A DNA stretch of 64,000 nucleotides from the NCBI RefSeq assembly GCF_963921235.1, contig NC_086097.1, positions 154,630,001 to 154,694,000 of the forward strand, written 5' to 3'. The position numbers were made by a program, and so were the translations under genes. The DNA comes from Mobula hypostoma. Its lineage: Eukaryota. Shown here one piece after another: positions 1,679 to 61,286 of the stretch; positions within the stretch are counted from its first letter, which is position 1; every line of letters begins with the position of its first letter. The notes beneath the pieces are model-generated. The model was given only the letters and a program-made list of their open reading frames with translations, ran no database searches and had not been told where the DNA came from.

Positions 1679-1920
1679 TTATATTTTTGTATGTAATTGC
1701 TTTATTCTTCTATTTTGTACAATTTAGCTGAAACGATCTTTGTTCTGTTCCTCAGTGTACTGTATCATATCCTCCAGGATCTCCCGGACTGCCTAGTTAT
1801 ATTTTTGTATTTAAGTGCAGTATTCTTGAAGTTTTGTGCAATTTTACTAAAAAGAATCTTTGTTCTGTTCCTCAGTGTCCATTACCATGTCCTGCAGGTC
1901 CTCCTGGATCTCCCAGGCTG
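1679..1920 (+). repeat. Degenerate ~120 bp tandem duplication including the acceptor and part of the NC3 exon
   Basis: atctttgttctgttcctcagtgt at 1736 and 1856; ttatatttttgtat at 1679 and 1797; outer boundaries approximate. Confidence 0.75.
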
Positions 1921-1930
1921 CCAGGATAAG
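1876..1930 (+). pseudogene. Collagen exon A (NC3/COL2 junction) CPLPCPAGPPGSPRLPG*; 55 bp instead of 57
   Basis: ctcag|TGTCCATTACCATGTCCT...GGATAAG|gtaaac; CPxxCP motif of collagen IX NC3; Gly>Arg (AGG) and TAA at 1927-1929. Confidence 0.8.
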
Positions 1931-2993
1931 GTAAACAGTAGTTATTTATACTGTTCTATTCCTGTTTATTGAGAACTGAATCCTGTCCTACAAGAAACCA
2001 TGGTTGAGAACTCAATCAAAGAAACTGATTTTGATTTTTTTTATTACCTATTTTAGTTTGAAGAAAGGTTCTATTTATTTGGCAAGGCCGGTGGACAGAC
2101 ATGTTGGATAGGACAGAGAGATCCCAATCCTCTTTAATTGTGCTGTACAGTCTTTTACAGTGGTAGCCTAAGTTATTTGCACAAATTCTAGATTAAATGT
2201 TCGATACCCAACCTGCTGATTCACAGAGGAGGGTAATGATATCTGAACCAAGCTACCACATAAGGTAAAGGCCTACCTCACTGTTGCCTTTATTTTTGCT
2301 TTGTTGGTGACGACATTTTCCACTTGTGTCAGGGCTTAGACAGATAAATACTCCTGTGATTTGGCAGCATGCAGCTCTGTCACTGCACAATCCACCACTG
2401 TGCTTGAGTGGTCATTGGTTCCACAGACTCTCAGAATCACACAGCAGAGAATCAGGCCATTTGCCCCACCAGGTCTGTGTTGACCATCAAGCACCTTTTC
2501 ACTTTATCAAATTTTATTCTCCTCACATTTCCGTCGACTCCCCCAGCCCCTGCCCTGATGCTACCCCTCACCTGCAGAGTAAGGACAATTTAAAGTTGTC
2601 AATTAGCCTACCAACGCACACAGCTTGGGGATAGAGGAAGTTACTGGAGGAAATTACCCAGAGGAAATCCTTATGGTCAGAGAGAGAATGTGCAAACTCC
2701 ACATAAACACTAGAGGCTTGGATCACTGGAGAATTGAAGAATCTGCTCTTCCAACAGTGCCACTGTCATTCCAGAATCTTTCATTTCTGCCCATAATTTT
2801 GCAACACTTCAGAGTGACAAGGCGTGATTCCAGTTCTCTCTTGTTTAGTGTGTACCCTCAGTGAACCATGATTGACTTTAGTTGAGACCAGCATGTTTTT
2901 CAGTATTTCATGATGTTGCATTTTAATTCACTACACAACTGCACAAACCTGTTTCGTACTGATACTGAAAATTAACCACCTTTTCTCTTCTAG

Positions 2994-3047
2994 GGACAGA
3001 AAGGCCAAAAAGGTGTTGCTGGAGCAGTGGGCAAGGAGGGTCTGAAG
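2994..3047 (+). CDS. Collagen exon, 54 bp, GQKGQKGVAGAVGKEGLK
   Basis: ttctag|...|gtatat; 6 Gly-X-Y triplets. Confidence 0.9.
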
Positions 3048-4352
3048 GTATATGAACAGAGCCAAATTTCCTCTTAGTATATTTCTCAAGTTCTGTGAGA
3101 ATTGTTATGCTTTTGGAATAGGCCATTCATCCCATGAAGTCAAAGTCAAAGAGCAGTGCAGCTCAGAAACAGGCCATTTGGCCCATCTAGTCTCTGCCAA
3201 GCTATTATTTTGCATAGTCTCATTGACCTCGACCTGGACCTTAGCCTTCCATGTACCTCCCATCGATGTACTTATCCTAATTTATCATAAATATTAAAAT
3301 CAAACACACATCCATCACTTCCACTGGCAGCCTGTTGCACACTCTTACCAGCCTCTGAATGAAGAAGTTCCTCCTCAAGTTTCCCTTAAATATTTCACCT
3401 TTCACCCTTAACTTAGAACGTCTGGTTTTAGTCTCACCCAAAGGTTTTGACTTTGGCAGGACTCAAACCGAGACCCTTTGATTCACTTCAACCATGAGAA
3501 ATTCAATGTGCTATCCATTGTGCCATGAGCAACCCATTAGATCCTCTTCCAGCTCCTAATTCCTGCCTTCCTCCTCCCATAGACCCGCAAATAGTGTGCC
3601 TTTAACATTCTCACATATTTCCCTTTAATGGACTCTACCTTTGCCCCACCTTTACTGTCAGTGAATTCCAACCATAATCACTCCTGGTTTAAGAAAGTTT
3701 TCCATATTTCCTTGTTTTTTTTTACACCTATGTTTTGGATCTTCTCTGCTCCTCTAATTATCCATAATGGGAACAAGGAAACTGAGAAACTTTGAAAAAC
3801 AGGAACATAGGTAGCCCATAGGATCCTTTGATATTACTCCACCATTTATTATGATTATGATGGCTGTCTGTCTCCACACTATATTCTCATTCTTTCCTCA
3901 GGTTCTTCAATACTTTTTGCATCTAGAGATTTTTTTATTATAAATTTTCTGAAGACAATGAGCAACTTGACCACTATATCCCTCTGTGGTAATAAGCTAC
4001 ACAGGTTCACCAACCTCAGATGAGAAGAAGTTTGTCCATGCAGTGTCTTGAATGTCCTCCCCATAACCCAAAACACTGATCCTTCAGTACAGCTTCGCCA
4101 GAGGAAACATCATCCTCAAATCAAATTTGTCCAGCTCTGTTATAATTTTGTTAGTTTTTATGAGATCCCCTTTCCTCTATACTCTAGTTACTAGACATTT
4201 AATTGGTTGAATATTGCAACCAAAAAAAAATCTGGTGGACTATTGCTGTACTCACTCGCTGCCAAGCATATTCTTTCTTGAAAATGTAAGCCAAACTCCT
4301 ATGGGTATGATGTTATCACCAAAGGCCTGTACATCTGAACTAAGCCACCCTT

Positions 4353-4922
4353 CAAAGAATGTGTGTATATAAATAAATAAGGGATGGGGTACGAGGGGGA
4401 GGTGGGGCATTAGCGGAAGTTAGACAAGTCAATGTTCATGCCATCAGGTTGGAGGCTACCTGAGTTGGAGCCAACTTCCGCTAATGCCCCACCTCCCCCT
4501 CGTACCCCATCTGTTATTTATTTATATACACACATTCATTCTTTCTCTCTCTCTCTCTCCTTTTTCTCCCTCTATTCCTCTGACTATACCCCTTGCCCAT
4601 TCTCTGGGTTTTCCCCCTCCCCCTTTTCCTTCTCCCTGGGCCTCCTGTCCCATGATCCTCTCGTGTCCCTTTTGCCAATCACCTGTCCAGCTCTTGGCTC
4701 CATCCCTCCCCCTCCTGTCTTCTCCTATCATTTTGGATCTCCCCCTCCCCCTCCCACTTTCAAATCTCTTACTAGCTCTTCCTTCAGTTAGTCCTGATGA
4801 AGGGTCTCGGCCCGAAACGTCGACTGTACCTCTTCTGAGAGATGCTGCCTGGCCTGCTGCGTTCACCAGCAACTTTGATGTGTGTTGCTTGAATTTCCAG
4901 CATCTGCAGAATTCCTTGTGTT
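4353..4922 (+). mobile_element. Penelope-like element terminal repeat (pLTR) with short inverted 5' segment
   Basis: Highly similar to arms at 12018 and 13245; 4357-4422 is the inverse of 4473-4537; flanking taagcca(c/t)cctt duplication at 4341-4352 and 4923-4934. Confidence 0.75.
4789..4826 (+). ncRNA. Minimal type I hammerhead ribozyme motif (Penelope-associated)
   Basis: agtc-CTGATGA-a-gggt ctcg gccc-GAAA-c-GTC-gact; stem I agtc/gact, palindromic ACGT stem III. Confidence 0.7.
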
Positions 4923-7832
4923 TAAGCCATCCTTGCTCCTTTCCTAAAATTCTCTTGCTATGAAGATTAATGTACCATTTGGCAACTTAACTGCTTCCTT
5001 AACTCATATGTTTGCTTTCTGTATCTAATGTATATCAATACATATTTTTGTAAAACAATTGGAATAACATGCTTTTATCTTGTTTTTCCTAACATAGTGG
5101 ATAACTTCATACTTATCCACATTGTGCTGCATCTGCCAGGTTTTTGACTGTTCATGCAATTTGATGGCCAACTTGAAGCCTCTTAAACCCTCTTCCAGAA
5201 TCCCACAGTGTTGTTGGCCATCCAGGTCATTAAATCACTAATCTCTCCACTATCCCACTGTTACCATTTGCACCTCAGATGACCCATTTATTACTACTTT
5301 CTGTTTTTGACTCTCAACTATTTTTTAGTTTACGCCACTATATTGATTCCAACTTGATACAGGTATAACAAAGAAAGCTAATGAAGGGATTGTCTAAAGT
5401 TATTTATAATTAATCTAAAATCCAGTCACAGCGTAGATAAGAAGTCATCTCAAAGTCCCTAAGTATAGTTCGGAACATGTTTCCTCAGTAAAGATGTTGT
5501 TTAATTTTGCATACTGAACTTTTATTTAGGAATTTATCAACATCTTTCTGAAAATGCACTGTTTCTCACTTGTCTATTCTACCAATTACATGCTCAGAGT
5601 TCTAATGTCAAACATTATTTGCCTTCCACACATCCATGTTGATTTTGGCTAATCCCATGATGATTTCAAATGCACCATTATCTCAACCTTCATGTTAGAC
5701 TCCAGCTCCTTTCCCTCTACTAATGTTAGGATAACTAGCCTAGTGTCCTGTTTTATCCCTTACTCCTTCCAGAGTAGGTTCCCTCGATTTGTCATCATTG
5801 GAGCCGTCCTGAATTCCTCGACCAATTCTCCCATCAACATTATTATGATTGTGAAAGAGAATAATTCCAGACTCCTCAGAGTCATAGAGCATTACAGCAT
5901 AGAAACAGGCTCTTCAGCCCATCTAGCCTTTGCCAGCCTGGGTTTACTCCTTAGTCCTATCTAGCTGCATACCGACCATAGCCCTCCGTGTCTTTCTCAT
6001 TCATGTACCAAACTAAACTTTACTTAAATGTTACAATTGAACTTGCAACTGTCACTTCCCATTGACCCACACTTGTACCACCGCTGAGTGAAGATGTTCC
6101 CCCTCATATTCCCCTTAAACTGTTTCATCATTCACCCTCAGTATAGTTCCTGAAGGGAAAACTCCTGCATACGTTCACCCTCTCTATACCCCTCATAAAT
6201 TTTCTATACTTCTATAAGATCTCTCCTCATTCTGCTGCACTCATGGGAATAAAATCATGGTCTATTCAACCTTCCCCTGTAACTTAGATCAAGTTCCAAC
6301 AGCATCAGCATAAATTTTCTCTGCACTATTTCAGACTTATTGATATCTTTCCTACACGTGGGAAAATCTTCCCTGTATGCCCAATTGAACACTATAGTTG
6401 GAATTCTACCTCCTTGGAAAATAGCATACTTTTTCTAATCCTCTTACGCTTCAATGTTCTACAGAAAGTCTAATATACAGAATTGTGTACGGTACTCCAT
6501 TTGGATTAACACTGTGTTTTATAGAGCTTCAACAGAACCTCGCTCCTTTTACATACAAATTAGGAGAAGGAAAACCTTACTTGATCCTTCAAGTCTCCTC
6601 CACCATTTGTTAAGTTTTCTTTACAGTTACTAACCGATCTCTCAATATATCCTGACACAATTTCCACGAATGTAAACCATAGTCTCTTTGTTTCCATACT
6701 ACCTTCAGAAATATGGCATCTGAGCCACTTATTCCCCCCTTGTTCTTTATGCCAACGTGTATCAGTTCACATTTGTCTGTCTTCCCATTCTGTCAGTCTA
6801 TTGTGTTTACTTGTTATTAACTTTCCTTGTCACCATATACCATATCCTCATTTTTATTTCATCTGCAAACGTTGATATGTTAGCATGCACACCTATATCC
6901 AGGCAAACTGCTAGGAACCTCTAAGGAGGAACATTGTCAACTGTACTTAGCAACATTAACATGATCACATGATTTCTTATCTACTGTGTGAATGATGCCT
7001 ATATTCACAGACTTGCCTCCTTTAACCTGAAAAATAATTATAAATAACTTTAGAGAAACTTTTCTTTAGGCTTTCTCAGCCAGAAACGTTGACTGTTTAT
7101 TCTTTTCCATAGATGCTGCTTGGCCTGCTGAGTTCCTCCAGCATTTTGTGTGTATTGCTTTCATTAGCTTTCTTTGTTACTTAATCAGAAAGTTCAATCT
7201 GATTAGTCAAATATATTGTATTTCTAACAAATCCATGTGTCCCTTCTTTTATTAATCCAAATCCCTTAAAGTGTCAATTATTTCTAACTATTTGCCACCA
7301 CATTAATCCAAGATTAAATAAATCAACCGGTCAGCAGTTACCACGTATGCCCTTGCACCCCATTTCATATTGCTAATCTAGTGATTTATGGATTATTTCC
7401 TCTTGTGGATACCTTGGAAAATTTGAATGTTAAATATTGTCTAGTGTGGGATAATATCAAACATCCAAGCATTGACATTATGGAAGAGCCTGAATCTACT
7501 TTCACTAATGTACTGTAGATGTGCAGTTTCTTGCAATCACCTTTTGATACTCTGTTCTACACAAATGTGCAACAATAGAAGTCATTATTGCCAAGAGCTT
7601 TTTTCTTGGGAAACATTGACACAGAGAAATGAACAAAACTGGAAGCTTTCTGATCTAAGTTGAAAAGCACCGTCCAAAGGAGCTTTGGAAGCTCAGATTT
7701 CTGAAAGACTTTTCTGTCTTCAGAGTGAGGGGATTCACTGCTCAGCAATTAACACTTCTCAGTAATGGTGCTTTGTTTTGCAAAGTTGGATTATTCTGTA
7801 AAATGTATTCTTTTGTCATTGTTAAAATACAG

Positions 7833-7886
7833 GGCAATCGTGGCTCTCCTGGGCCACAAGGTATCAGAGGTCTCCCTGGATCTGAG
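7833..7886 (+). CDS. Collagen exon, 54 bp, GNRGSPGPQGIRGLPGSE
   Basis: atacag|...|gtatat; 6 triplets. Confidence 0.9.
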
Positions 7887-8821
7887 GTATATATGTGATA
7901 TCATTCAATTAAAGTAAATATTTTCTAAATGCATACATATTTTCTGAGTATATTTCAGTTTTCATAATTCACATAAATACCATCTGTGATGTTTTGACAA
8001 CTGAATAAGCATAGAAACTTACAGCACATTACAGGCTCTTCAGCCCATAATGTTGTGCTGACCATGTAACCAAAATAGTTAACCAGTTTGCTATAACTCG
8101 GCTGATGTCTCTATTAAGCACTTGATACAGATATGTTAAATATTTATTATGACCATCTCCTATCTCCTCATTAGTAATTTCATTCATATTAAAAGTGGAT
8201 TTCCCACCAGAGTGTAAACAGTAGGTGCTTACCTTCCATCCTTCAGATGTTAAATTTAACTGTCTAAATTTCCCTCCATGTTAAGTCTTATAAAAACAAA
8301 AGTTCTAAAGTCTAATGTAAGACTCAATATGTTATCACTGCCTAATTTATGATTGTGTTTATTACAGTATTTCCAGGCTTTTTCTCAACAATTTTATTTA
8401 GATAATCAGTAAGAAAGATTAGTTTAGGTGAAGCGTCTTTGTCACTGCTAAACAGTGGAATTGATAGAAAATGGAAGAGGAATGCACTTGTATCATTTCT
8501 CTTAGAGAGCTCATGAACAGTTCTGTAAGTTCTCCATAAGAAAGTCTTTCTTCTAATCAATATATCCTGTGTCTTGTTCCCTCAGTCATTTTCAGCTTAA
8601 TGTCAGCATCTGTCTGTCCCCACTTGTCAGCAGGAATCCATCCCAATTGTCCAACATCATCACATCATTAAATTTCAGATGCAACTATCAAAAATATTAA
8701 AATTATTTTGTTTCCAGAAATTAGGACTAGTTTCCCATCACAACGTCAGCACTGCAGCGGTAAACACAGAGTCACAGGCTCTTTGATTTAGTTTAACCTA
8801 TTATTAGTTATTTTACTCTAG

Positions 8822-8875
8822 GGTTCTCATGGACGTAGAGGTTTTCCTGGTGCATCAGGAAATAAAGGGAGCAAA
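8822..8875 (+). CDS. Collagen exon, 54 bp, GSHGRRGFPGASGNKGSK
   Basis: ctctag|...|gtgagt; 6 triplets. Confidence 0.9.
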
Positions 8876-9876
8876 GTGAGTACTATATTAAAAATATTTT
8901 CCATGAGGATGTACAATATATTATAACTTTCAGTCAATTTGTTATCAGTTAAGCTTGCAAAGAAAGAATTATTGCTCTTCTCATCTACAATGCCTATATT
9001 AATATTTTTGAAACAGATACAATTATTTTACTTAATATTCTGTATTTGTGTTATTTTTCCCAAGCCAATTTCCTCTGCAATTCTTGTGCTACCTCCAACC
9101 TAATTTTAACACATCATGTTCCTTCAATACTTGTTCTCTCCATTGCCACAGCAAAGTTCTCTTTGCTCCTGTTGTTTTGCCTCAGCACATTTAATACACT
9201 TCCTCATTGCTTTACTGTAATTTCTATCCAGAGTCCTAAAAATTATACCTTAAGATGTCATCCCATTTTCTTTGTGCCTATTACAGTTCCTCTTTAATGG
9301 CATCATTCTGGAAGATTACTTTCACATTAATACACATGGTAATGGAACTCAAGTTATATTTTTGAAATTACCTTTCAGATTTCCACTATGCCATAATAAA
9401 TAATAAAATAATGTGAGATAGCAAATCTCAAGGTTGTATAACTTATACATTCTTTGATAATAAATGAATCTTGAATCTTGATAATTAATATAAGCAATAT
9501 TAATAAATAAAGTTTTGATATTGACTCTCACTAGACATCATGAGCATTTGGATGAACTGCAGAATAACTGAGATTTAGAGAAGGAATTTCAGCTCTTACT
9601 TTCTGTCAATCAATATTTCTGGAATTAAACTTAATTTTGTTTTGCAGTTTAACATTTATTATTAGAATTTTTCTTTTCTAATAGTTCAGTTTAACAAAAA
9701 TTCCCTTTTCTACCTCTGGCATATATGTAAATGAGGCCTCTTGGTTGTGCTTGCCAATGTGGATAGTGAGATGTCTCCTTGACATTGCACAACTGTAGAT
9801 CTACGTGGCACTAACATAAACTTTAGATCTGAAGTCAGACCTGTTAGCAGATGCAAGATCAAAGGTATTGTGAAAG

Positions 9877-11145
9877 GACGAATCTCATAGAATTTTTTGA
9901 GGATGTAACTAGTAGAGTGGATAGGGGAGAACCAGTGGATGTGGTATATTTGGATTTTCAAAAGGCTTTTGACAAGGTCCCACACAGGAGATTAGTGTGC
10001 AAACTTAAAGCACACGGTATTGGGGGTAAGGTATTGGTGTGGGTGGAGAATTGGTTAGCAGACAGGAAGCAAAGAGTGGGAATAAACGGGACCTTTTCAG
10101 AATGGCAGGCGGTGACTAGTGGGGTACCGCAAGGCTCAGTGCTGGGACCCCAGTTGTTTACAATATATATTAATGACTTGGATGAGGGAATTAAATGCAG
10201 CATCTCCAAGTTTGCGGATGACACAAAGCTGGGTGGCAGTGTTAGCTGTGAGGAGGATGCTAAGAGGATGCAGGGTGACTTGGATAGGTTGGGTGAGTGG
10301 GCAAACTCATGGCAGATGCAATTTAATGTGGATAAATGTGAAGTTATCCACTTTGGTGGCAAAAATAGGAAAACAGATTATTATCTGAATGGTGGCCGAT
10401 TAGGAAAAGGGGAGGTGCAACGAGACCTGGGTGTCATTATACACCAGTCATTGAAAGTGGGCATGCAGGTACAGCAGGCGGTGAAAAAGGCGAACGGTAT
10501 GCTGGCATTTATAGCGAGAGGATTCGAGTACAGGAGCAGGGAGGTACTACTGCAGTTGTACAAGGCCTTGGTGAGACCACACCTGGAGTATTGTGTGCAG
10601 TTTTGGTCCCCTAATCTGAGGAAAGACATCTTTGCCATAGAGGGAGTACAAAGAAGGTTCACCAGATTGATTCCTGGGATGGCAGGTCTTTCATATGAAG
10701 AAAGACTGGATGAACTGGGCTTGTACTCGTTGGAATTTAGAAGATTGAGGGGGGATCTGATTGAAACGTATAAGATCCTAAAGGGATTGGACAGGCTAGA
10801 TGCGGGAAGATTGTTCCCGATGTTGGGGAGGTCTAGAACGAGGGGTCACAGTTTGAGGATAGAGGGGAAGCCTTTTAGGACCGAGGTTAGGAAAAACTTC
10901 TTCACACAGAGAGTGGTGAATCTGTGGAATTCTCTGCCACAGCAAACTGTTGAGGCCAGTTCATTAGCTATGTTTAAAAGGAAGTTAGATATGGCCCTTG
11001 TGGCTACAGGGGTCAGGGGGTATGGAGGGAAGGCTGGGTTCTGAGTTGGATGATCAGCCATGATCATAATAAATGGCGGTGCAGGCTCGAAGGGCCGAAT
11101 GGCCTACTCCTGCACCTATTTTCTATGTTTTCTATGTTTCTATGT
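9877..11145 (+). mobile_element. Young 5'-truncated CR1 LINE (RT domain to 3' tail)
   Basis: Uninterrupted ORF with YLDFQKAFDKV, GVPQGSVLGP, KFADD; (TTTCTATG)n tail. Confidence 0.95.
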
Positions 11146-11605
11146 ATGTGTTGATGTAGAATTATTCAGAGCTACTAATTGCCCTGAACTAATAAAAGAT
11201 TTTTTGAACTTTTTCTTAATTCAATACTATTATTTAGTTGTAAAATCCTACAGTCGGTCCAAGGATAATTCAGGAACATTTAAACTTTGGCTGCATGTGA
11301 TTAGTAACCAGTGTTAGGCACCCTGCTGTTGGTTAGCATCAAGGTGGAGAATACTGCACTGAACCAGTATGAATTTTGTAGCTTTCAAATTCTAATACAG
11401 CCTTCATACACCCTTTTACAGGTTTCTGCCTCACAGCTTCATTCCTGAAATAGCATCCTTTTTGTTGCACTTCATAAAGAACAGATAAAATTGAAGTTTC
11501 ATTTCACAATAAGAAGTTTCCAGCTATTTTTTGAAGCATTTTTTTTAAAGCAGGAAATATAAAGTCTGAAGCTTATCAATTCTAAACGTTTTCTTTTCCT
11601 TCCAG

Positions 11606-11659
11606 GGAACTCCAGGATATAATGGCTTGCCGGGGCCCCCAGGCCCACCTGGACCTACT
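11606..11659 (+). pseudogene. Collagen exon, 54 bp, GTPGYNGLPGPPGPPGPT; splice donor mutated
   Basis: ttccag|...|ttaagt (expected gtaagt). Confidence 0.85.
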
Positions 11660-12017
11660 TTAAGTGTCCAGTGATTTTTACTGTAGTTAATTTCAAGGTG
11701 CATGATAGATTTTGTTCAGGTAGGTTAGACAGCAGGACCACTGACCAATACAAAAATGCTGATTTCTATCCCCTGACTACAGACCTGTTGCTGGAAGATT
11801 GGGGGTCAGTGGTGCCCTTTTACAACAGTCACAGACACACTTTCCACTTTCTGCATTAAAAATTATCTAACTGATTTGATTGAATAAAGCACTCTGCGGT
11901 TATAACCTGTTTTGTTTTCAAATATGAAGTATTGGTGCACTGTAGACTGTTAGGTGAAAGCACTAGAGCACAAAACAAACTGCACTGTCGACGTAACTGG
12001 GTAGTTCACAATTTGTG

Positions 12018-13835: not shown

Positions 13836-14610
13836 AGTTCACAATTTGTGTTGAGATCCTTCATCAGTCCAGATGAAGGGTCACAACCCGAAACGTGACT
13901 ATCCAATTTCCTCCACAGATGCCGCCTAGTCCACTGAGCTCCTCCAACTGTTGCATTTTGCTTTATATCTGTACTTGCTAGTGATACTGGTAAAAAGCAT
14001 GAACTGAATCAGAACACCAGGCAATGATGGCTTGTGATCATTGAATAGGCAGAATGAATGGCCTCTTCTTGGTTTCACTGGGAGTTTCATTTGATTCATA
14101 CAGGATGTACAAAGCCTTGGTGTCTTACTTTACAATTGTAACATTCATCTGAATATACATCATAGTTTAGTCAGTTAGTGGGATAATAAAATTGATTAGA
14201 ATTTAAAGTCCATCAAAAAGATGTAACTTCTGAAAACGCTGCATATACTTGTCAACATAGTTTACTGAAATCCTAATGTTGGGGAATGAGGCAAACTAAC
14301 ACTCTGGAGCAATTTGACTCCGAGATGACTAAATAAATTGAATAACCTACCTCTGCAACTATACTGATATGGGTTTCTCTTTTTTTTTACTTTTAACTCT
14401 GTTCACTGATCCTTGCACATGCGCAGATAATCTTTCAGAGGAATCGGTGGCAAAAAAAAATGCTGCAGAATAAACAGAGGCAATATTCATATTTGTTACA
14501 CTGTATCAAAATGTTTGAAGGAAAGCAACCAATGTATAACCAGTATTGCTCAGATGTGATTAACTGGATGTGATGAAAAGAATATTATGAATAAATCTTC
14601 TGCATTCTAG

Positions 14611-14664
14611 GGCCCTGAAGGTGCGCATGGTAGAAATGGAGAACCAGGCATCAATGGCGCCAAA
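14611..14664 (+). CDS. Collagen exon, 54 bp, GPEGAHGRNGEPGINGAK
   Basis: ttctag|...|gtaatt. Confidence 0.9.
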
Positions 14665-47880: not shown

Positions 47881-47934
47881 GGAATTTCTGGAGAGCCAGG
47901 ACTCATTGGACCTCCTGGTTTACCAGGTCCTAGT
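47881..47934 (+). CDS. Collagen exon, 54 bp, GISGEPGLIGPPGLPGPS
   Basis: tttcag|...|gtgagt. Confidence 0.9.
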
Positions 47935-49825: not shown

Positions 49826-49897
49826 TTATATCTCTGACCTGTAGGTTGAAAGAGCTGATTTGATTTTTTTAATTAGCTGCTGTTTTCTGGTTAATAG

Positions 49898-49969
49898 GGA
49901 ATGAAAGGTGACTGTGGTCATCCTGGGCTTCCGGGCCCTCATGGGTTTCCTGGAGGGAGAGGTGATAAG
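49898..49969 (+). CDS. Collagen exon, 72 bp, GMKGDCGHPGLPGPHGFPGGRGDK
   Basis: taatag|...|gtatga; 8 triplets. Confidence 0.9.
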
Positions 49970-50517
49970 GTATGATATTACTTGAATAGCTATAAATTAT
50001 CTGTTATTTGTACTTGTAAAGGACTAATGTAGGAAAATTATGTAGTGAAACTTGTTAAGTTACTGTGCTTGGAAATTTGCTGGTACCAGTGTCATTTTTT
50101 TAAACTATTATTACAAAGAGATACAATAAATTTTCTAGCGAGTTTCAAAGTAATATGGGAAAAGAGCCACCACTGAGTTTCAAGGAAACGAGGGAAAGAG
50201 GGGCCTGCTGAGTTCAAAAGGAGTACAGGAAATATCAAAGCTAGCTAGATGCCAAAGGGTCTGTCTAATTGAAAGAGCAGATTATCAGCGATTTATCATA
50301 CATCAGATTCAAGATAGGGCAAAATTGTCTGAACTATGAATGTAAACTATCATCATTGGAATTGGGTTCTACTGATCCAATTGTCACAGAAAACTACTTC
50401 AAATCCATGTAGTGAGTTCCTCTACTAACTGATTCATTCCAGGAAGTGAGGACTACCTTAGACTGATTCCACTGATTTATTGAAATGTTCTAAGTCATAT
50501 TCTTTTCATCCTTTCAG

Positions 50518-50553
50518 GGCTCTTCTGGTATTCCTGGTCTTAAAGGATGTGAG
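50518..50553 (+). CDS. Collagen exon, 36 bp, GSSGIPGLKGCE
   Basis: tttcag|...|gtaaaa; 4 triplets. Confidence 0.85.
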
Positions 50554-51278
50554 GTAAAATAATGTAAGGGTTGATTGAACTTTTAGAATTCTCACTAATG
50601 AATCCATCCATGACATTTCCATTTCCTAAGTTTGTAACATCGTCCAGCTCTACAACCACACAATTGTCAGCATCAGCTTGGGCCTCTTCACATCTCTTTT
50701 CCTGAAACTGTTATTTGTAATCATTCTTTCAGCTGCCAAATCACAACCCTTTGGCTTTCTCTCCTTAAATTCCTCTTGACCCCCATCTCACTCTTGATTT
50801 TAACACATTTCTTTGACTGTTTTCGGATATACCTCTCAATATCCCCTTTGACTCCTAAATGATGTTTTGTAATATCTCAGTGAAGCACTTTGTGATTTAT
50901 TACCATAAGGGTACTGTAAATATGGTTCTTCTTAAATAATGAAAGTTTTGCATTTATGTGGTCTTGTTCATAGTTTCCAATCCATCCAAAATTCTTCCCC
51001 ACCAACAAAATATCTTTGAAATAGTTTCAATTGCAATCTTCAAATTAGTTCATTATTTTATTTTTGTTATAGGAAATTTTTTTTACTAAAGTACTGATCA
51101 GGCAGCATAGCAACAATCTGAATGACACTCAGAGGTTACTCAGAAATTATAGTTGGGAATTCTGAGAGGGGCGTATTCAAAAAATACCATTGACATACAA
51201 TTAATTGCAACAGTTCTTTATTAGGACCCCATTAAATTGGAGTGCTATTTTAATGTCTTTTGATTATTAATTTGAAAG

Positions 51279-51323
51279 GGAAAGCAAGGTCTGAAAGGTA
51301 AAGCTGGACAAAAGGGTGAGCAG
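51279..51323 (+). CDS. Collagen exon, 45 bp, GKQGLKGKAGQKGEQ
   Basis: tgaaag|...|gtaagt; 5 triplets. Confidence 0.88.
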
Positions 51324-51870
51324 GTAAGTCATGATAAATATATAAAGTCCTATACATTAAGATTTTGTGGTTCAAAGGCTCTTGCTTCACACGTTGGCTG
51401 ATGAAATACCTCAAGCTAAGTCTGGATCAGCTGGAGGAGAATATTTAGTAATCATTGAGTGTTTAGGGAAGAACCTTTTCTCACTGATTTTAAAGAATCT
51501 GAAAATTGATCTACTTTGCCCTTCATGTATTATCCATAATGGTTTCTGAAATTATCATATTGTTGGAAGATGGCTTGGCATGAATTGTACTGTTTTTCCA
51601 AGTAAGAAATAGCTTTCGTGCATATTTGAATGCAGATATTGACAATCTTCCAAAGTATGACACGGCAACAGAACTAGCCAGGTCTCTTTAGAAGGAGTAG
51701 AATGGAGCTGAATTGGAAATCATGAAATTTTTCAAAGGGATTTGTCCTTCCAGATTATTAATACATGCAGAGGAAGATGAGCGAGATCCCCACTGCTTTA
51801 TTGGAAAATGAATATTGGTCATTCTTAAGCATAGTTCTTTTATAAAAAATTATGTATTTATATTTTACCG

Positions 51871-51903
51871 GGGATTCCTGGTCTTCAAGGCAAGAAAGGA
51901 GAG
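51871..51903 (+). pseudogene. Collagen exon, 33 bp, GIPGLQGKKGE; splice acceptor mutated
   Basis: tattttaccg|GGG... (expected ...tacag); donor gtacat; 33-bp split-triplet exon typical of collagen IX. Confidence 0.8.
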
Positions 51904-53569
51904 GTACATATAAGCTTTATAAGGAAATTTCATTTTACCAGTGAAGCTTGCTTTGAGAATGGTGGTCACCTAAATTAGTTAATGATTGGGTATAAGGTAA
52001 TTTTTTAATTAATCCCATCAGCTTTCTTTCTGCTTTGAAGAAAAGGCAAAAGGTAATAATGAGGTGATTTCTATGTTATGGGTGTTAGAAGGAAGAGGAA
52101 ACGGAAAGAATTTCAGATAACATCAAATACGACCAGAATGAGGCATAAGAGAATGTCGATTCTGGAATCTGAAGCAACAGCCAGCTGGAAGAACTTAGTC
52201 TTTGAGCAGCATCTGTGGGAGGAAGGGAATTGTTGATGTTTTAGATTCAAACTACATCAGGATAGCAGCCCGATTGATGAAATTCTGTCCTTTGAGTGAG
52301 AAGTTAAATTAAAGCCCCATATTCTCTCAGCTGGACTCAAAAATTTCATAGCAGTATTACTGAATTCATGCCGATGTTTTGGTTAACATTTATCCATCAG
52401 TCACTATCACCAAAAATGAGATTATCTGGTCATTAGATTGATGTTTTATTGGTACTTGTTGGGTATATTTTGGCAGCTGTAATTTCTACATCACAACACT
52501 GATAACAGTTCAGATAAGCCTTTTGGCCTATAGAGAAATACGGGCTGAGGTTAGGCAAGAACCTGCATCAGTACAAGTATTTTTTTAATGCATGACTGAG
52601 AGAAGGGAATAGCGCGCAACACTGAAGGAGAATTTTCTACTCAGTGGAAATCAGAAAAAGAAATATCAAACTTGAATGCATCAATAAAATATAAAGAGAT
52701 GAACAAATGCACTGGAGAAAGTAAAAGATATAGGAGCAAAAGCATTTTTCAAATAAGGTTTTGCCTTAGAAAGTACTATATTAGAAGTATTAATAATCTT
52801 AAGTACAATTGCAAAGAACCTCAAATACCTAGCAAATCAATTTACATCTGCAAGGTACAAAAATGGATTTGATTATTGAGCATAAACCTCTATCATAAAT
52901 AGAATCTTGAAGATACACGATCTTTTAGCAGAATTGAACAAAGCAACAATGGAGAAATGAGTTGCATATCCTAATATTCCCCTTATATACAAATGTAAAG
53001 CAGTTAAACCACTACATGACTGTATGGGGATTACTTTAGTGAATATTCCATTTAATCCTGCCTGGAACTATTTGATTTATTATGTCTTCTGGAAGAACCA
53101 GCTCATACATGAGACATGTATTCAATTCCTAACCTGGACAGGAATATCAATTCAGTGCAAATGAAGACCTGTAAATTGAAAGCAGAATATTAATGCTAAA
53201 TCAGCAAAAGTAAGTCATGGTTACACAGAGATTGAGAATTAATTGGCAGAAGAAATTTGTGCAGTTCACAAACACATTCCAATGTGTTGATTTAGTCTAT
53301 CAAAGTAATAGAACACTACGGCACAGAAACAGGCCCTTCAGCCCATCTAGTCTGTGCCAAACCATTAATCTACCTAGTCCCATTGACCTGAACCCAGACC
53401 GTAGCCCTCTATGCCTCTCTCATCTATGTACCTAACCAAATTTTTCTTAAATGCTGAAATTTAACCCGCTCCCACCACTTCTGCTGGCAGCTTGTTCCAC
53501 ACTGTCAAAACCCTGAGTGAAGAAGATCACCCTCCTGTTCCCGGTAAAGATTCCACCTTTCACCCTTAA

Positions 53570-54197
53570 TGTTAGCATTCATTTCAAGAGGTCTGGAATA
53601 CAAGAGCAGGGATGTGATAAGGCATTGGTGAGGCCTCACCTTGAGTATTGTGAACAGTTTTGGGCCCTTCATCTAAGAAAAGATGTGCTGGCATTGGAGA
53701 GGGTCCAGAGGAGGTTCACAAGGGTGATTTCGGGAATAAAAGGGTTATCATATGAGGAATACTTGATAGCTCTGGCTCTGTACTCGCTGGAATTTAGAAG
53801 GATGAGGAGAGATCTCCTTAAAACCTTACAAATGTTAAAAGGGCAAAACAAAGTAGATGTGGAAAGGATATTTCTCATGATGGGGGAGCCTTGGACAAGA
53901 GGGCTCAGCCTTATGATAGAGGTGTGCTTATTTAAAACAGAGATGCGGAGAAATTTCTTTAGCCAGTGGTGAATTTGTGGAATTTATTACAACAGGCAGC
54001 TGTGGAAGCCAGGTCATTGGGTGTATTTAAGGCAGAGTTTGATAGATTCTTGATTGGACACCCATCAAAGATTATTGTGAGAAGGCCGGGAAGTGTGGTT
54101 GAAGGGGGCGGGGGGAGAGAAGGGATTAGCTGTGATTGAATGGCAGAGCAGACTCCATGGCCAAATAGCCTAATTCTGTTCCTATGTCTCATAATCT
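53570..54197 (+). mobile_element. CR1 3' fragment nested in the older CR1
   Basis: ALVRPHLEYC..FW...LERVQRRFTR...MRRNFFSQ. Confidence 0.85.
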
Positions 54198-55052
54198 TAA
54201 TCGATGACCTCTAGTACTAGTATCACCCAACCTCAGTGGAGAAATCCTGCTTACATTTACCCTATTTATACCCCTCGTAATTTTGTGTTTCCCTATCAAA
54301 TCTACCTTCATTCTCCTACACTTGAGGGAATAAACCTATTCAACATTTCCCTAACTTAGGTTTTCAAGTCCTGACAACAAACTTCTAAATTTTCTCATCA
54401 CTCTTTCAATCTTATTTGCATCCTTCCTGTAAGTAGGTGACCAACATCTTGCACAACTTCAAAATAATATCACAACTCCTGTGCTCAGTACTTTGATCTC
54501 TGAAGGCCAATGTGCCAAAAGCTTACTTAATGACTGTATCTACTTGTGACACTACTTTCAAGGAATTATAGATCTATATTCCCAGATCCCTCTGTTCTAC
54601 TTCACTCCTCAGCGCCCTACTTATCTCTATGTAGGTCCTACCCTGGTTGTTCCCCCAAAGTGCAGCACATCAGACATAAATTTCAGCTGGCAATTAAATT
54701 CCATCTGGCAATTTTCAACCAATTTTTCCAGTTGGTCCAGATTCCCCTGCAAGCTTTAATAGACTTTCTTGCTGTCCACTACACTTCCAGTCTTGGTGTC
54801 ATTGGCAAATTTGCTGATCCAGTTTACTGCATTGTCATCCAGATTGTGGATATGGTTGATAAACAGCAAAGGGCCCAGTACTGGTCTCTGCAACATACCA
54901 CTAGTCACAGGCCACCCGTCAGAGAGGCAACTATCACTATCTGACTTCTCCTGTGATGCCAATGCCTAATCCAGTTTACTATCTCATGGAATGTCAAGCA
55001 ACTGAACCTTCTTAACCACCTTCCATGTGTGATTGTGCCAAAGTCCATGTAG

Positions 55053-58000
55053 CATGTGAAGACAGACTCTGGCGGATTGAGCGGACGAGACCAATGGAAG
55101 GTCCAACGGTCAAGAAGGCGGTCTCAACTCTTGTCTTGTCACTGGATCCAGATAGGAATTAGGAAGAGAGAGTGAGGCTGATGCTGCGCAACTCTCCCTC
55201 ACTTCAATCCAAATCAAGCGCTAGTCTCGACATCATCATCATCTTCACCCTCAAACTTTGAAGTCCTGTGGCGATGGGCGAGTGATGAAGCAGCAGGTGT
55301 GGATACACTGGGAGCTGTAGTCACGGACCTGCACACAGGCAGCTCAGGTCTAATAGTCACTTTTCACTGACCGAAGCAGCAGTGAAACTCAGCATCTACC
55401 TGGGCGACTGAACAGCCCTCTTTAGGAACGCACTGCTCACCCCCGTAGTATGAGGAAGGGGCTAGAAAAGGTGCCCTAAACTTTGCCTGCTTCATTACAC
55501 CCTGGCCAGTTTACCGCAGCTGGCAGAGATCCTATCTTGGCGGTCGAACAAACACAACAAAACGCAAGGTGACACCACTCACCATTGGCAGTTGGAACAT
55601 GTGCACGCTATTCGACAACCCTACAGTAAACAGACCAGAGAGAAGAACAGCCTTAGTTGCCAGAGAGCTTGCAAGATACAACATTGACATAGCAGCCCTG
55701 CATGAGACTCGTCTTGCCCACGGAGGTCAGCTGACTGAAACTGGAGATGGATACACCTTTTTCTGGAGCGGTCGCAGCGGCGATGAGCGTCGTGATGCTG
55801 GAGTTGGATTCGCCGTCAGGAGTCACCTTGTTCGGAAACGTTCCAGTCTCCCCAAGGGTGTGAATGACCGGCTCATGACACTACAGCTTCCGCTACAGAA
55901 CAGAAGTCAAGCCATCCTGATCAGCGCCTATGCCCCCACAATGACCAACCCGGATGAGACGAAAGACGGGTTCTATGAAGAACTAGACGCCCTACTATCA
56001 GCAGTGAGCAGCACCGACAAGCTGATTTGGCTCGGCAACTTCAATGCAAGAGTAGGGCATGACTCTGCAGCCTGGCAGGGAGTCACTGGGAGACATGGAG
56101 TGGGCAAATGTAACAGTAACGGCCTATTCTTGCTGAAGACCTGTGAAGCACACGGCCTGCTCATCACCAACACAACTTTCCACCTGCCTACCCGTAACAA
56201 GACCTCCCAGATGCACCCCCGCTTTAAGAATTGGCATCTTGTCGACTATGTCATTGTCAGGAGAAAAGACAGGCAGGATGTCAGAGTGACAAAGGCGATA
56301 TGTGGTGCTGAATGCTGGACAGATCACAGGCTCATTGTCTCCAAAATGAAGCTCCGCATCAGACCCAAGAGGTGACCACAAGGAAGCAAGGCTATGAAAA
56401 GATTCAATGTGGCCAGGCTGAAGAACTCCAGCATAGCTTCAGCACTGGCTGAAGATTTAGAAACCAAGGTTGCTGACCTACCCCTTGCAGGCAGCACTGT
56501 GGACGACTGGGATCGCTTCAGCGATGCTGTCCATTCACCTGCACTAAAGGGCTCTCTACCCACAAGAAGCATGGCTGGTTCAATGAGAATGATGAGGAGA
56601 TACAGGCTCTACTCGTTGAAAAGCACCACCTTCATTGTGCCCATCAGAACGACCAATCATCAGCTGCCAAGAAAAATGCCTTTACCAGTGCTTGCAGGAT
56701 AGTTCAGAATAAACTGTGTAAAATGCAAGATGCCTGGCTGAGCGCCAAGGCAGATGAACTACAGGGATGCGCTGACAGAAATGACTTGAAACGATTCTAT
56801 GAAGCCCTCAACACTCTCTATAGACCTCAGTCTCTTGGGAGCTCCCCCCTCCTGAGTACAGATGGTACTGTTACGTACCCCGTAACTGGGTTGCCAAACC
56901 AGCAGAAATGGATCACTCAGTTGCAGTCTGGATTACTGGAACTAAGAGAGTTTTATTAAAGAAACAAGCAACACAGTACTCTAATCAAAAGGATAATAAA
57001 TGCAACAGTTCAGCAATGATAAACACACATGGTACACAAAATTAGGATAACAGGATCAATCAAGCTCTATCGTCGTCTAGGGGTAAATGACCAGTTTCAA
57101 AGTGACGCAAAGTTCAGTTCAGTTCACAGTAATCACTGCCGTGGCGATGGACAGTGGGGGGGATGGAGAGAGAGAGCAAAAACGAATGAATATTCAAACG
57201 GCTTCCACACAGACCTTCGATACTCTTCACAGTCAGCTTTTGGGCGAGCCCTTTGTGATGTCATCTGAGGTCACCGACTGTGACCCCCCCCCCCCCCCGT
57301 TTCCAGATACGATCGTTTCTCTGCGGTGAAACCTGGCACCCAGGCAAGGGCGGACACACACCAGGTTCCCGCCGATCGTACCTTTCCACCCTGTGCGTCT
57401 ATGGCTTGGTCCCGCGACCAGCCCTCCAAAACCTCCCACCAACTTGTGGGAGACGCACCGCTTCCAGGGTCTCGTTACCTCGGGGTGTTGTGTGTGTCTT
57501 GCCTTAGCGAACCTGTCCCTTTTTATCCCCCTGCTGGGGTATCGCCTGTCCATCACTTCAAACAGTTCAGGGTTCAAAGGGGGGGCCGATCTTGACAGCT
57601 CTCCTTCTGTCCCTTAATTAACATCTCCAAATGCTGCTCCATTGTTTTCCTTATCTCTCTTTCTCCTGAAGACAGGTGGCAGACCAACTGCTGATCCCAC
57701 TGGTGCCAGCACAGGACAGTTAACACCTTAATCTATGTGTACTCTCGTCACAGTACAACTCTCATTACAGAGCAGGCTCAGATCCTGCAGAGATGGGCTG
57801 AACACTTTGAAGCCATCCTTAACCGACCATCATATATTAACGATGAGGCGATAGACAGGATTCCCCAGGTCGACATCAACAGCGTCATGGATGACCCACC
57901 GGTAGTAGCCGAAGTTACGGAAGCTGTCAGCAGCTATCCAGTAACAAAATCCCAGGGGCAGACGCCATACCTGCAGAGATCTACAAAACCGGTGGTCCTG

Positions 58001-59688
58001 TACTTATAGAGAAGCTCACTGAGTTGTTCCAGTCTTTTTGGAAGCAAGGATCCATTCCTCAGGAACTTAAAGATGCATCCATCGTACACCTCTACAAGAG
58101 GAAGGGCAATTGAAAAGTATGCGACAACCACCAAGGAATCTTGCAGCTCTCCATAGCAGGAAAAACCCTTGCAAGAGTCCTGCTAAATTGTTTGGTCACT
58201 CACCTGGAGCTGGGCTTGCTGCCAGAGTCAGTGTGGCGTTCGCAAAGGTCGTGGGACTATTGACATGATTTTTTTAGTGGGTCAACTTCAGGAGAAGTGT
58301 CAGGAGCAGAATCGCGAACTCTACACAACTTTTGTTGACCTCACGAAAGACTTCGACACTGTCTGCCGACAAGGCCTGTGGAGGATCATGTCAAAGTTCG
58401 GCTGCCCCGCCAAATTCATTCAGATGGTACACCAGTTCCATGATGGCATGATGGCCGGAGTGCTGGACGGTGGAGAATCCTCTGAGGCATTCCCAGTCAC
58501 CAATGGCGTCAAGCAGGGCTGTGTGCTCGCACCCACACTGTTCAGCATGATGTTTTTTGCCATGCTGAATGATGCCTTCCAGGACAGTGATGCTGGAATC
58601 AGCCTCAAGTATAGAGTGGATGGGAAGCTCTTCAACCTGAGGAGACTTCAAGCTATCACCAAAGTGAAGAAGACTGTTCTGAGAGACATCCTCTTTGCCG
58701 GTGACTGCGCCCTGTATGCTGGCTCAGAGCTAGAGATGCAAGACAATACTGATAAACTCTCCACGGCTTGTGACAACTTTGGACTCACCATCAACATCAA
58801 AAAGACCGAAGTCATGCACCAGCCTACCCCTCCTGCACCGTACACAGAACCCAAAATCACAATCAAAGGACAGAAACTACATGCAGTGGACCAGTTCACT
58901 TACCTTGGCAGCAACCCTCTCCTGAGCAGTGGCTATTGATACAGAAGTTAACTGCAGAATAGCAAAGGCAAGTTCTGCTTTCAGTAGACTGTGCTCCACT
59001 GTATGGGAATGCCGAGGAATCAGTCCAGCAACAAAACTGAAGGTCTACAGAGCTGTGGTACTCACTACCCTCCCGTATGCCTGCGAAACATGAACTGTGT
59101 ATCGAAGGCATACAAGACAGCTCAACCACATGACTTGTCTTCGCAGAATATTAGGCATCAGATGGCAAAATAAAGTACCAGACACTGAAGTTCTCTCTAG
59201 ATCAAGTCTGCCATCAGTCCACACACTGGTGATGAGAGCACAGACCTGGTGAGCAGGTCATGTCATCGGCATGCCAGACGAGCGCATACCCAAGCAGCTC
59301 CTTTTTGGGGAACTCTCTGCTAGAAGATGCTCGGATGGAGGACAGAAGAAACATTACAAAGACACATTAAAGGCCTCCCTGAAGTCACCTGACATAGACA
59401 CAACCACCTGGGAAACGCTGGCACAAAACCGCCCTACCTGGCGCAGCCTCATCCACAAGGGCTGTCAAGCTTACGAAGCAAGGCGCATTGCTGAAGCACA
59501 ACATAAGCACAAGCTGCACAAGTCCAGAGACACCAGCGCAACAACTGCAGTGCCTACACGTCTGCCCAACACGTGCCAGGACATTCCGTGCCCGAATTGG
59601 CCTGACCAGTCACCTTCAGACACACTGTATCCAGTCTCAAAGTGACTAATGGTGTCGAGGTCTTCATCGACAATGATGGATGAACCAT
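55053..59688 (+). mobile_element. RTE-clade LINE, near full length and degenerate
   Basis: APE ORF 55569-56375 (PERRTALVARELARYNIDIAAL.ETR, SAYAPT, TDH); RT 58265-58939 (FVDLTKDFDTV, GVKQGCVLAP); C-terminus MPDERIPKQLLFGEL; atgtag duplicated at 55047-55052 and 59689-59694. Confidence 0.92.
56869..57752. mobile_element. Solo LTR (TG...CA) inserted in the RTE ORF
   Basis: tgttacgtacccc...cgtcaca; 4-bp TSD GTAC on both sides. Confidence 0.85.
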
Positions 59689-60042
59689 ATGTAGACAACA
59701 TCCATTGCCTTGTCTTCATCAACTTTCCTGGTAACTTCCTCAAATAAAACTCTGTAAGAATGTATGGACACAACCTACCACACATAACGCCATGTTGATT
59801 ATGTCTGGTTCCTTAGAATACCTTCCAATAACTTAACAACTACTGTATTCTTTAGAGCCTTTTTTAAACAATGGAACAACATTAGCTAGCCTCCAATCCT
59901 CCAGCACTTCACCTGTTACTAAGGACATTTTAAATATCTCTGCTAGGACTTCTGCAATTTCTGCATCAGCCTCCCAGAAGGTATGAGGGAACACCTTGTC
60001 AGGCTGTGGGGATTTATCAATCCTAATTTGACTCAAGACAAC

Positions 60043-60867
60043 TGTTACGTACCCCGTAACTGGGTTGCCAAACCAGCAGAAATGGACCACTTAGTTGGAG
60101 TCTGGTTTAACAGAAGCTAATAAAGTTTTATTAAAGAAATAAGTAACACAGTACTCTAATCGTAAGGATATAAATGCAACAGGTTAGCAATAATAAAACA
60201 CACGTAAACAGAACTAGGGTAATAGGAATCAATCAGGCTCTATCGCAGTCTAGGGGTAAAATGATCAGTCTCAAGTGATGCAGAGTTCAGTTCAGCTTAG
60301 TACAGTTCGCAGTAATCACTGTTGTGCCGTTGGAGAGAGAGAGAGAATGCAAATTTTGATTCAGACCTTTGATGTTCTTCACAGTTGGCTTTCGGGCGAA
60401 CCCTTTTATGTCTTCTGTGGTCACCAACTGTGACCCCTCTGTTCCGGATACGACCATTCTTCCGCGGTGAACCCGGCACCCAGGCAAGGGCGGACACACA
60501 CACCAGGTTCCCACCGATCGTACCCTTTCACCCTGTCAGTCTATGGTCGGTTCCCTCGAACCAGACCTCCAGCTCCCACCAACTAGTGGGGGCACACCGC
60601 TCTTCCAGGGTCTCATTATCTCGTGATCTCGTGGTGTGTGTCGTGCCTTAGCGAACCTGTTCTTTTTATCCCCCTGCTGGGGTATCACCTGTCCATCAAA
60701 CTTCAAACAGTTCAGGTTCAAAGCAACCGGTCTGTCAATATTCTGAAATGTGTTTCTTTCTTGTTAATCTCTCTCTTCTCTCTTATTAGCATTTTGAATG
60801 TTTCTCCATTGTCTCACTTATCTCTCTCATCAGCATCAATCTTCTGATAACTTGGTTTGTCGTCACA
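60043..60867. mobile_element. Solo LTR of the same family, inserted in the old CR1
   Basis: Same termini; 4-bp TSD CAAC on both sides. Confidence 0.85.
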
Positions 60868-61158
60868 CAACAATCACCACCTCTTCTGTAATCTGTGTTT
60901 ACTGGGCACAGACTCTATAGAAATGAGGCAAAACCGTGGGGAGTTAATGGATCATACACAGGTACAAGGAGAGCTAGCTAATTGGATATATAATTAGCTT
61001 GATGACAGAAAGCAGAGCGTGATGATGAAAGTTTCCTCTTCAAGTTGGAAGGCCTTTATTAATGCTGTCCTCTTGAGTAAATACAAGTAGAATAAAGACA
61101 ACTGCCAGAGTTGAGTATTTTGTCTTCATGTGTTGTTATACATGTTTTGCCTTCATAG

Positions 61159-61286
61159 GCTGGGATGTCTGGTGGAATGGACCTCCTGGACGGCCTGGTC
61201 TTCAGGGACCACCAGGTCCAGTTGGTTCTCAAGGAATGGAAGGAGTACAAGGAGCTCCTGGGCTTCCTGGTTCACCAGGTAAACAG
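61159..61286 (+). pseudogene. Collagen exon, 128 bp, AGMSGG/frameshift/[36 protein letters not shown]
   Basis: tcatag|GCT...CAG|gtgagt; first codon completes the GE-A triplet of the 33-bp exon; length not a multiple of 3. Confidence 0.85.

What the first reader, a model, noticed from the sequence alone, without database searches (positions are those of the whole stretch)
1876..61286. Possibly a fourth collagen IX chain rather than alpha1, alpha2 or alpha3
The exon architecture is type IX, but compared from memory the X/Y residues resemble human alpha3(IX) in some exons (VGKEGLK vs VGKDGEK) and alpha1(IX) in others (GRDGTPG vs GRDGIPG), never closely. Inference: an extra paralog, for example from whole-genome duplication or related to teleost col9a1c, which I recall being linked to fin actinotrichia. 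If the host is a ray, loss might track reduced fin ceratotrichia; this is speculation.
Basis: inference. Interest (0 to 1): 0.7.

Follow-up and report, generated by a model that had tools for sequence, protein, structure and literature searches.

The report
Dead fourth collagen IX gene, col9a1c
This stretch is the middle of a broken gene for a fourth collagen IX chain, likely a ray's copy of the fish fin-fibre collagen col9a1c and likely a leftover of early vertebrate genome doubling; three of its stop codons are absent from related species, so it likely died recently.

Summary
The window holds 18 exons of a single-copy collagen IX gene that is not alpha1, alpha2 or alpha3; those three lie elsewhere in G000 and read open in every exon recovered. 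Its NC4 domain groups with shark, sturgeon, coelacanth and teleost proteins (98/97); published zebrafish col9a1c primers tie the teleost members to col9a1c. It sits between a FAM135 gene and COL22A1, mirroring FAM135-COL9A1-COL19A1-like on another chromosome: likely the fourth whole-genome-duplication copy. Its shark orthologue has an alpha1-type NC4 but an alpha3-like NC2/COL1. The gene is dead: five in-frame stops, two frameshifts, two broken splice sites. All 3 stops tested are absent from the related organisms that cover them, so the loss is likely recent; a ray-wide link to reduced ceratotrichia is unsupported. This genome's COL9A1 shows no NC4 exons, so it may have no NC4-bearing collagen IX left. 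The gene is known (col9a1c; 'col9a1-like', reported absent from tetrapods). The scan noted this gene's tail on adjacent DNA before (e1-9811828).

The parts
1..64000 (+). The window lies wholly inside the gene. The gene runs from about 60 kb upstream (signal and NC4/TSPN exons at G000:C1:154569621-154582375; first collagen exons to 154624004, with a TAG at 154600673) to 6.8 kb downstream (NC2, COL1 and NC1 exons at C1:154696146-154700777, with a TAA at 154696197)
1676..1800 (+). Degenerate tandem duplicate of the acceptor and part of the next exon
1876..1930 (+). CPxxC exon (end of NC3, start of COL2); 55 nt instead of 57, frameshift with in-frame TAA at 1927-1929
2994..3047 (+). COL2 exon, 54 nt, open
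7833..7886 (+). COL2 exon, 54 nt, open
8822..8875 (+). COL2 exon, 54 nt, open
11606..11659 (+). COL2 exon, 54 nt; splice donor reads TT instead of GT
14611..14664 (+). COL2 exon, 54 nt, open
15141..15194 (+). COL2 exon, 54 nt, open
28475..28528 (+). COL2 exon, 54 nt, open
33957..34010 (+). COL2 exon, 54 nt; first Gly replaced by Ser (shared with organism B), TGA at 33978-33980 (absent from organisms B, C, D)
34818..34862 (+). COL2 exon, 45 nt; TAA at 34839-34841 (absent from organisms B and D; C not covered)
39198..39251 (+). COL2 exon, 54 nt, open
41791..41844 (+). COL2 exon, 54 nt, open
47881..47934 (+). COL2 exon, 54 nt, open
49898..49969 (+). COL2 exon, 72 nt, open
50518..50553 (+). COL2 exon, 36 nt, open
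51279..51323 (+). COL2 exon, 45 nt, open
51871..51903 (+). COL2 exon, 33 nt; splice acceptor reads CG instead of AG
61159..61286 (+). Last COL2 exon; 128 nt instead of 147, 19-nt frameshifting deletion

Best explanation
The window is the middle of a broken, single-copy collagen IX gene that is likely the ray orthologue of zebrafish col9a1c and likely the fourth copy made by the two early vertebrate genome duplications. Shown: exon layout, lesions, single copy, clade membership of NC4, the three-gene neighbourhood. Inferred: when intact it made a FACIT chain with NC4 at the front and an alpha3-like NC2/COL1, which would take the alpha3 place in a collagen IX trimer on type II collagen fibres and brace the fin fibres, as Col9a1c does on zebrafish actinotrichia (PMC10119692). 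It would be the sister of COL9A3, with NC4 ancestral and kept here; that pairing is only weakly supported. Now the first stop comes just after NC4, so no chain can be made. Constraint likely loosened before the split from organism B, and the stops came after it.
For: NC4 tree of 43 rows: window gene with two sharks 100/99, inside a 14-row clade with paddlefish, sturgeon, bichir, coelacanth and teleosts 98/97, beside a 9-row COL9A1 clade 99/98; coelacanth has a row in each (repeated on 23 rows). Zebrafish col9a1c primers (PMC10119692), translated by hand, give LDLNRLD-GDTVC, present letter for letter in P0009 and P0014 of that clade. The out-of-frame part of catshark P0001 maps onto nine window exons in order. 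Synteny: C1 FAM135(-), this gene(+), COL22A1(-; TSPN 77-78% to rodent COL22A1, 44 collagen exons, none with a stop) against C2 FAM135(+), COL9A1(-), COL19A1-like(+). The four best KCNQ-family hits lie on C1, near COL9A1, near COL9A2 and near COL9A3. COL9A1, A2 and A3 read open from the CPxxC exon to the stop. One genomic hit for window DNA. PDB: P0001 NC4 matches human alpha1(IX) NC4 (204 bits); its NC2-COL1 matches alpha3 (140 bits) over alpha2 (107) and alpha1 (93). Run X1 confirms two stops; runs X5, X9, X10 lack the stops they cover.
Against: AU tests do not cleanly reject the alternatives: ray and shark genes joined to COL9A1 without the bony-fish clade p=0.0625 on NC4; on the C-terminus p=0.053 (alpha1), 0.215 (alpha3), 0.048 (alpha2). 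The C-terminal tree does not join the ray and shark rows to teleost col9a1c with support (not rejected, p=0.27). A four-chain quartet is unresolved (8, 8 and 4 informative sites). No zebrafish Col9a1c protein was in hand; the link rests on primers. FAM135A versus B was not resolved; the TRAPPC9 and KCNQ hits on C1 lie over 40 Mb away. Only 4 exons were examined in relatives. X1 may be the sample the assembly came from.
Confidence: 0.87

Rival explanations
1. It is the col9a1c orthologue but arose by an old local duplication or a recombination (alpha1-type front, alpha3-type back), not as the fourth whole-genome copy.
For: NC4 is closest to alpha1 while NC2-COL1 is closest to alpha3; the four-chain quartet is unresolved.
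Against: Both neighbours are duplicated with it in the same order and orientation. Alpha2 and alpha3 lack NC4, so likeness to alpha1 there is by default; invertebrate relatives carry the domain.
Confidence: 0.06
2. It is the true COL9A1 of cartilaginous fishes, as the database name of the white-shark protein P0002 suggests.
For: It carries the only collagen IX NC4 found in G000; the AU test gives p=0.0625.
Against: The C2 gene groups with turtle and teleost COL9A1 (90/91), is 75% identical to teleost col9a1 in the NC2-COL1 exon and lies tail-to-tail with a COL19A1-like gene; window NC4 is 59-65% identical to most bony-fish col9a1c rows against 38-52% to COL9A1 rows.
Confidence: 0.03
3. The locus still makes a useful short product (NC4 with a few triplets).
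For: The NC4 exons are open and 81% identical to shark; they are the genome's only collagen IX NC4.
Against: The NC4 end branch is 0.21-0.22 against 0.01-0.06 for the two sharks, as expected of relaxed selection; open frames fit a recent death; an early stop with many later exons would likely trigger decay (established knowledge).
Confidence: 0.03
4. The lesions are assembly errors, or the gene is a recent duplicate of an intact copy.
For: None beyond the possibility that run X1 is the assembly's own sample.
Against: X1 contigs match the assembly with 0 differences across both stops tested; most lesions are substitutions; organism B shares the in-frame deletion and two Gly-to-Ser changes; DNA and protein searches find one copy.
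Confidence: 0.01

Closest known systems
Zebrafish col9a1c (prp gene; LC546948) and Polypterus 'col9a1-like'
   Same: Same NC4 clade (primer link); long form with NC4; fin-fibre role shown in zebrafish (PMC10119692, whole text read); a 'col9a1-like' paralogue is described as absent from tetrapod genomes and expressed in the fin-ray domain (PMC12923738, passages; that it is the same gene is my inference).
   Different: Here in a cartilaginous fish and dead; teleost NC2-COL1-NC1 has diverged enough that the C-terminal tree does not join them with support.
COL9A1
   Same: NC4/TSPN domain (about 50% identical); same exon sizes through COL2; same three-gene arrangement with a FAM135 gene and a COL19/22-type gene.
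   Different: Separate clade since before sharks and bony fish split; different chromosome; the genome has its own open COL9A1, in which no NC4 was found.
COL9A3
   Same: Best match for NC2-COL1; the NC2-COL1 exon is 183 nt in COL9A3 and would be 183 nt in organisms C and D, against 189 in COL9A1 and A2; grouped in the best C-terminal tree at 59/89.
   Different: COL9A3 has no NC4; only 24-30% identity outside glycines; separate locus at C2:166.3-166.5 Mb.

Membership tests
Collagen IX chain genes | COL3-NC3(CPxxC)-COL2-NC2-COL1-NC1(two Cys) layout with the shared exon-size series | tested here: met
   16 of 18 window exons equal in size to those of COL9A1, A2 and A3; NC2, COL1, NC1 exons downstream
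Collagen IX chain genes | Open reading frame able to make a chain | tested here: not met
   five stops in the stitched frame, two frameshifts, two broken splice sites; filed as a pseudogene
col9a1c orthologues | NC4 clade with bony-fish col9a1c | tested here: met
   98/97 and 99/98; primer-encoded peptide in P0009 and P0014
col9a1c orthologues | C-terminal clade with bony-fish col9a1c | tested here: inconclusive
   unsupported fork; not rejected, p=0.27
col9a1c orthologues | Same gene neighbours as zebrafish col9a1c | not testable with these tools
   no fish genome was available for synteny
col9a1c orthologues | Product located on fin fibres | not testable with these tools
   shown only for zebrafish (PMC10119692)
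COL9A1 orthologues | Nested in the COL9A1 clade and adjacent to COL19A1 | tested here: not met
   separate clade; neighbour is COL22A1; the C2 gene fills the COL9A1 place; AU p=0.0625 is the one soft spot
COL9A2 or COL9A3 orthologues | No NC4; nested in the alpha2 or alpha3 clade | tested here: not met
   NC4 present; separate open COL9A2 and COL9A3 loci
Whole-genome-duplication ohnologue set | Neighbouring genes duplicated in the same order on another chromosome | tested here: met
   FAM135-COL9-COL19/22 triplets on C1 and C2; KCNQ members on all four regions

The most novel reading that the evidence does not exclude
Jawed vertebrates began with four collagen IX chains. col9a1c is misnamed: it is the NC4-keeping sister of COL9A3 from the FAM135B-COL22A1 region, a fin-fibre chain lost in tetrapods. 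In cartilaginous fishes COL9A1 shed NC4 and left that domain to col9a1c, so this ray lineage, having lost col9a1c within the last 1% or so of sequence divergence, is a natural animal with no NC4-bearing collagen IX at all, with living close relatives that still have the gene for comparison of fin fibres and cartilage.
Probability: 0.3. Interest if true: 0.65.

Novelty: new member of a known kind. Interest (0 to 1): 0.42.

Why it matters
It completes the collagen IX family as a four-member set from genome doubling and pushes the fin-fibre collagen col9a1c back to the shark-bony fish ancestor. A very recent, independent loss in a ray, next to relatives whose tested exons are intact, offers a natural comparison for what this chain does in fins, parallel to its reported absence from tetrapods. 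The apparent lack of NC4 in this genome's COL9A1 makes the loss more consequential. It also warns that database entries named 'collagen alpha-1(IX)' in sharks can be col9a1c.

Tried and rejected
Segmental duplicate: one hit. Two exons expected just before 1876 were not found in the 7.9 kb searched; deleted or too decayed, not settled. LMBR1 family search gave no hit near COL9A1, TRAPPC9 one weak hit 42 Mb away: neither helps local synteny. Atlas searches of the two FAM135 exons gave no usable hit. A search for shark COL9A1 proteins returned one teleost protein, so NC4 loss could not be checked in other cartilaginous fishes. No RNA holder listed; run X21 laid 0 contigs; neither is evidence on expression. 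A test of window gene plus G000 COL9A1 alone (p=6e-5) was badly posed, since it split the gene from its shark orthologue, and is not used. In-register comparison with teleost COL2 failed because those models skip exons. A long open frame inside COL9A2 first looked like a nested collagen and proved to be a minisatellite. Paper searches with no hits; one search returned only loosely related papers; the coelacanth genome paper was not held. No fold or complex job was run: the chains needed span introns and the answer would not change the verdict.

Full report
Observation. With splice sites fixed, there are 18 exons on the + strand from 1876 to 61286. The window is G000:C1:154630001-154694000. The gene continues 60 kb upstream to a complete NC4/TSPN domain and 6.8 kb downstream to NC2, COL1 and NC1. 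Sixteen of the 18 window exons have the sizes of the matching exons in this genome's own three collagen IX genes.

The other three chains. A search with the NC2-COL1 exon of a teleost col9a1 gave 4 matches; three are collagen IX loci at C2:96.46 Mb, C2:166.51 Mb and C76:5.19 Mb. I recovered their exons from the CPxxC exon to the stop and all read open; some small 5' exons were not located. The C2:96 Mb gene groups with turtle and teleost COL9A1 (90/91); the C2:166 Mb gene groups with two unnamed proteins at 100/99. Calling that group alpha3 and the C76 gene alpha2 rests on recalled chain features. X/Y identity over COL2 from the window gene is 46/169, 35/169 and 40/169 to alpha1, alpha2, alpha3; among those three it is 37-47 of 171. 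The gene is as far from each as they are from each other, and the best match changes by exon. An 801-base piece of the window has one genomic hit.

What it is related to. The last exon found one protein among 84 candidates, catshark P0001, 78% identical. The NC4 region of P0001 pulled in white shark, paddlefish, sturgeon, bichir, coelacanth and teleost proteins (best 120 of 1932 listed). In a 43-row NC4 tree the window gene sits with the two sharks (100/99) in a 14-row clade (98/97) beside the 9-row COL9A1 clade (99/98); coelacanth has a protein in each. None of these records is named col9a1c. The link comes from PMC10119692 (whole text read): primers flanking the tag site in zebrafish col9a1c, translated by hand, give LDLNRLD-GDTVC, which stands unchanged in P0009 and P0014. 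The likelihood tests are softer than the bootstraps: forcing the ray and shark rows onto COL9A1 costs 12 log units, p=0.0625, and C-terminal tests give p=0.053, 0.048 and 0.215 for alpha1, alpha2, alpha3. The C-terminal tree leaves ray plus shark and bony-fish col9a1c unjoined at high support.

Synteny. Thirty-eight kb downstream, tail to tail, lies COL22A1: TSPN exons 77-78% identical to rodent COL22A1, 44 collagen exons found, none with a stop. The FAM135 domain PF12394 has 2 matches in G000: C1:154.17 Mb (-), upstream of this gene, and C2:96.68 Mb (+), upstream of COL9A1. COL9A1 is tail to tail with another TSPN collagen, 41-48% identical to COL22A1; calling it COL19A1 is recalled from the human map. 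So both chromosomes carry FAM135, COL9, COL19/22 in the same orientations. The four best KCNQ hits lie on C76 (1.7 Mb from COL9A2), C2 (1.4 Mb from COL9A3; 15 Mb from COL9A1) and C1 (45 Mb from the window). This is the pattern of a four-fold paralogous region. FAM135A versus B was not settled.

Why it looks partly alpha1 and partly alpha3. Against solved structures, P0001 matches human alpha1(IX) NC4 at 204 bits, while its NC2-COL1 matches alpha3 at 140 bits, alpha2 at 107 and alpha1 at 93; the isolated NC2 constructs rank alpha3 first too. The best C-terminal tree puts the col9a1c rows with alpha3 at 59/89, and a four-chain quartet prefers that pairing by only 1.5 log units. I infer a sister of COL9A3 that kept the ancestral NC4; that neighbouring gene families pair the same way is recalled, not tested.

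Dead, and recently. Lesions: TAG at C1:154600673; 2-nt deletion with TAA in the exon at 1876; TT donor at 11660; TGA at 33978; TAA at 34839; CG acceptor at 51869; 19-nt deletion in the exon at 61159; TAA at C1:154696197; in-frame deletions of 18 and 9 nt and a GC donor in COL1. Two expected exons were not found. Of 24 runs listed I laid five. X1 (same organism label, possibly the source sample) matches both window stops. X5 (organism B; 5 differences in 846 bases and 16 in about 1040) lacks all 3 stops tested but shares two Gly-to-Ser changes and the 18-nt deletion, and by its change counts the GC donor. X10 (organism D, about 6% divergent) lacks all 3 stops; X9 (organism C) covers one and lacks it; both have the glycines and the 18 nt (both difference tables were cut, at 40 rows each). 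Neutral change of 0.7-1% would give 0.6-1.0 stops over the 2625 coding bases, so three private stops fit a gene already free of constraint on this branch, with few stops earlier. Only 4 exons were seen in relatives; whether B is dead is open.

Host and ceratotrichia. Two COL21A1 exons match a devil-ray protein (P0016) letter for letter, one at 55 of 55 residues, so the host is a devil ray or close kin. A loss this recent cannot explain a trait of rays at large. No held paper has both 'col9a1' and 'ceratotrichia'.

A side result. No NC4 exons were found for this genome's COL9A1, either genome-wide (35 of 35 candidates scored) or in 100 kb without N between its first collagen exon and FAM135 (five COL9A1 queries). 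The only collagen IX NC4 found belongs to the dead gene. I could not check other cartilaginous fishes.

What is known. col9a1c is the zebrafish prp gene, needed to align actinotrichia (PMC11409509 and PMC13120675, passages) and located on them (PMC10119692). PMC12923738 (passages) calls a Polypterus 'col9a1-like' a paralogue absent from tetrapod genomes, expressed in the fin-ray domain. Nine searches found no paper that places it as the fourth ohnologue, in cartilaginous fishes, or as lost in a ray; but the two primary papers (Huang 2009, Nakagawa 2022) and the coelacanth genome paper were not seen, no supplements were read, and they may hold a tree or synteny.

Verdict. A known gene in a new lineage, dead, with two unreported-looking twists (fourth-ohnologue position with an alpha3-like tail; loss in a genome whose COL9A1 seems to lack NC4). 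Interest 0.42.

Noticed in passing
G000:C2:96451000-96680000 (L059-L077, L098-L101): The genome's COL9A1 shows no NC4/TSPN exons between its first collagen exon and FAM135; it appears to exist only as a short form.
   Followed up: partly
G000:C1:126.79 and 126.90 Mb (L044, L051); C2:87.50 and 87.39 Mb (L043, L050): Two more paralogous pairs: a TSPN collagen next to a COL21A1-type gene on each chromosome. The TSPN collagens group with amphibian and teleost proteins loosely named 'alpha-1(IX)-like'; L051 looks like a second COL21-type gene.
   Followed up: partly
G000:C1:154596634-154596909 (L015): A 35-nt unit repeated four times inside the first collagen exon of the dead gene adds 105 nt and keeps the frame.
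   Followed up: no
window 1676-1800: Degenerate tandem duplicate of the acceptor and part of the CPxxC exon.
   Followed up: yes
P0001 and P0002: The catshark model runs out of frame through COL2 and the white-shark model stops after the first COL2 exons; model errors or real damage in sharks cannot be told apart here.
   Followed up: no
G000:C76:5212199-5213760 (L092): A 21-base minisatellite of about 1.5 kb in a COL9A2 intron gives false open frames of about 500 codons; COL9A2 and COL9A3 each have an intron of 80-90 kb.
   Followed up: yes
G000:C1:154.9 Mb against 197-200 Mb: TRAPPC9 and KCNQ matches lie over 40 Mb from COL22A1 on the same contig, suggesting a rearrangement relative to the recalled human order.
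   Followed up: no
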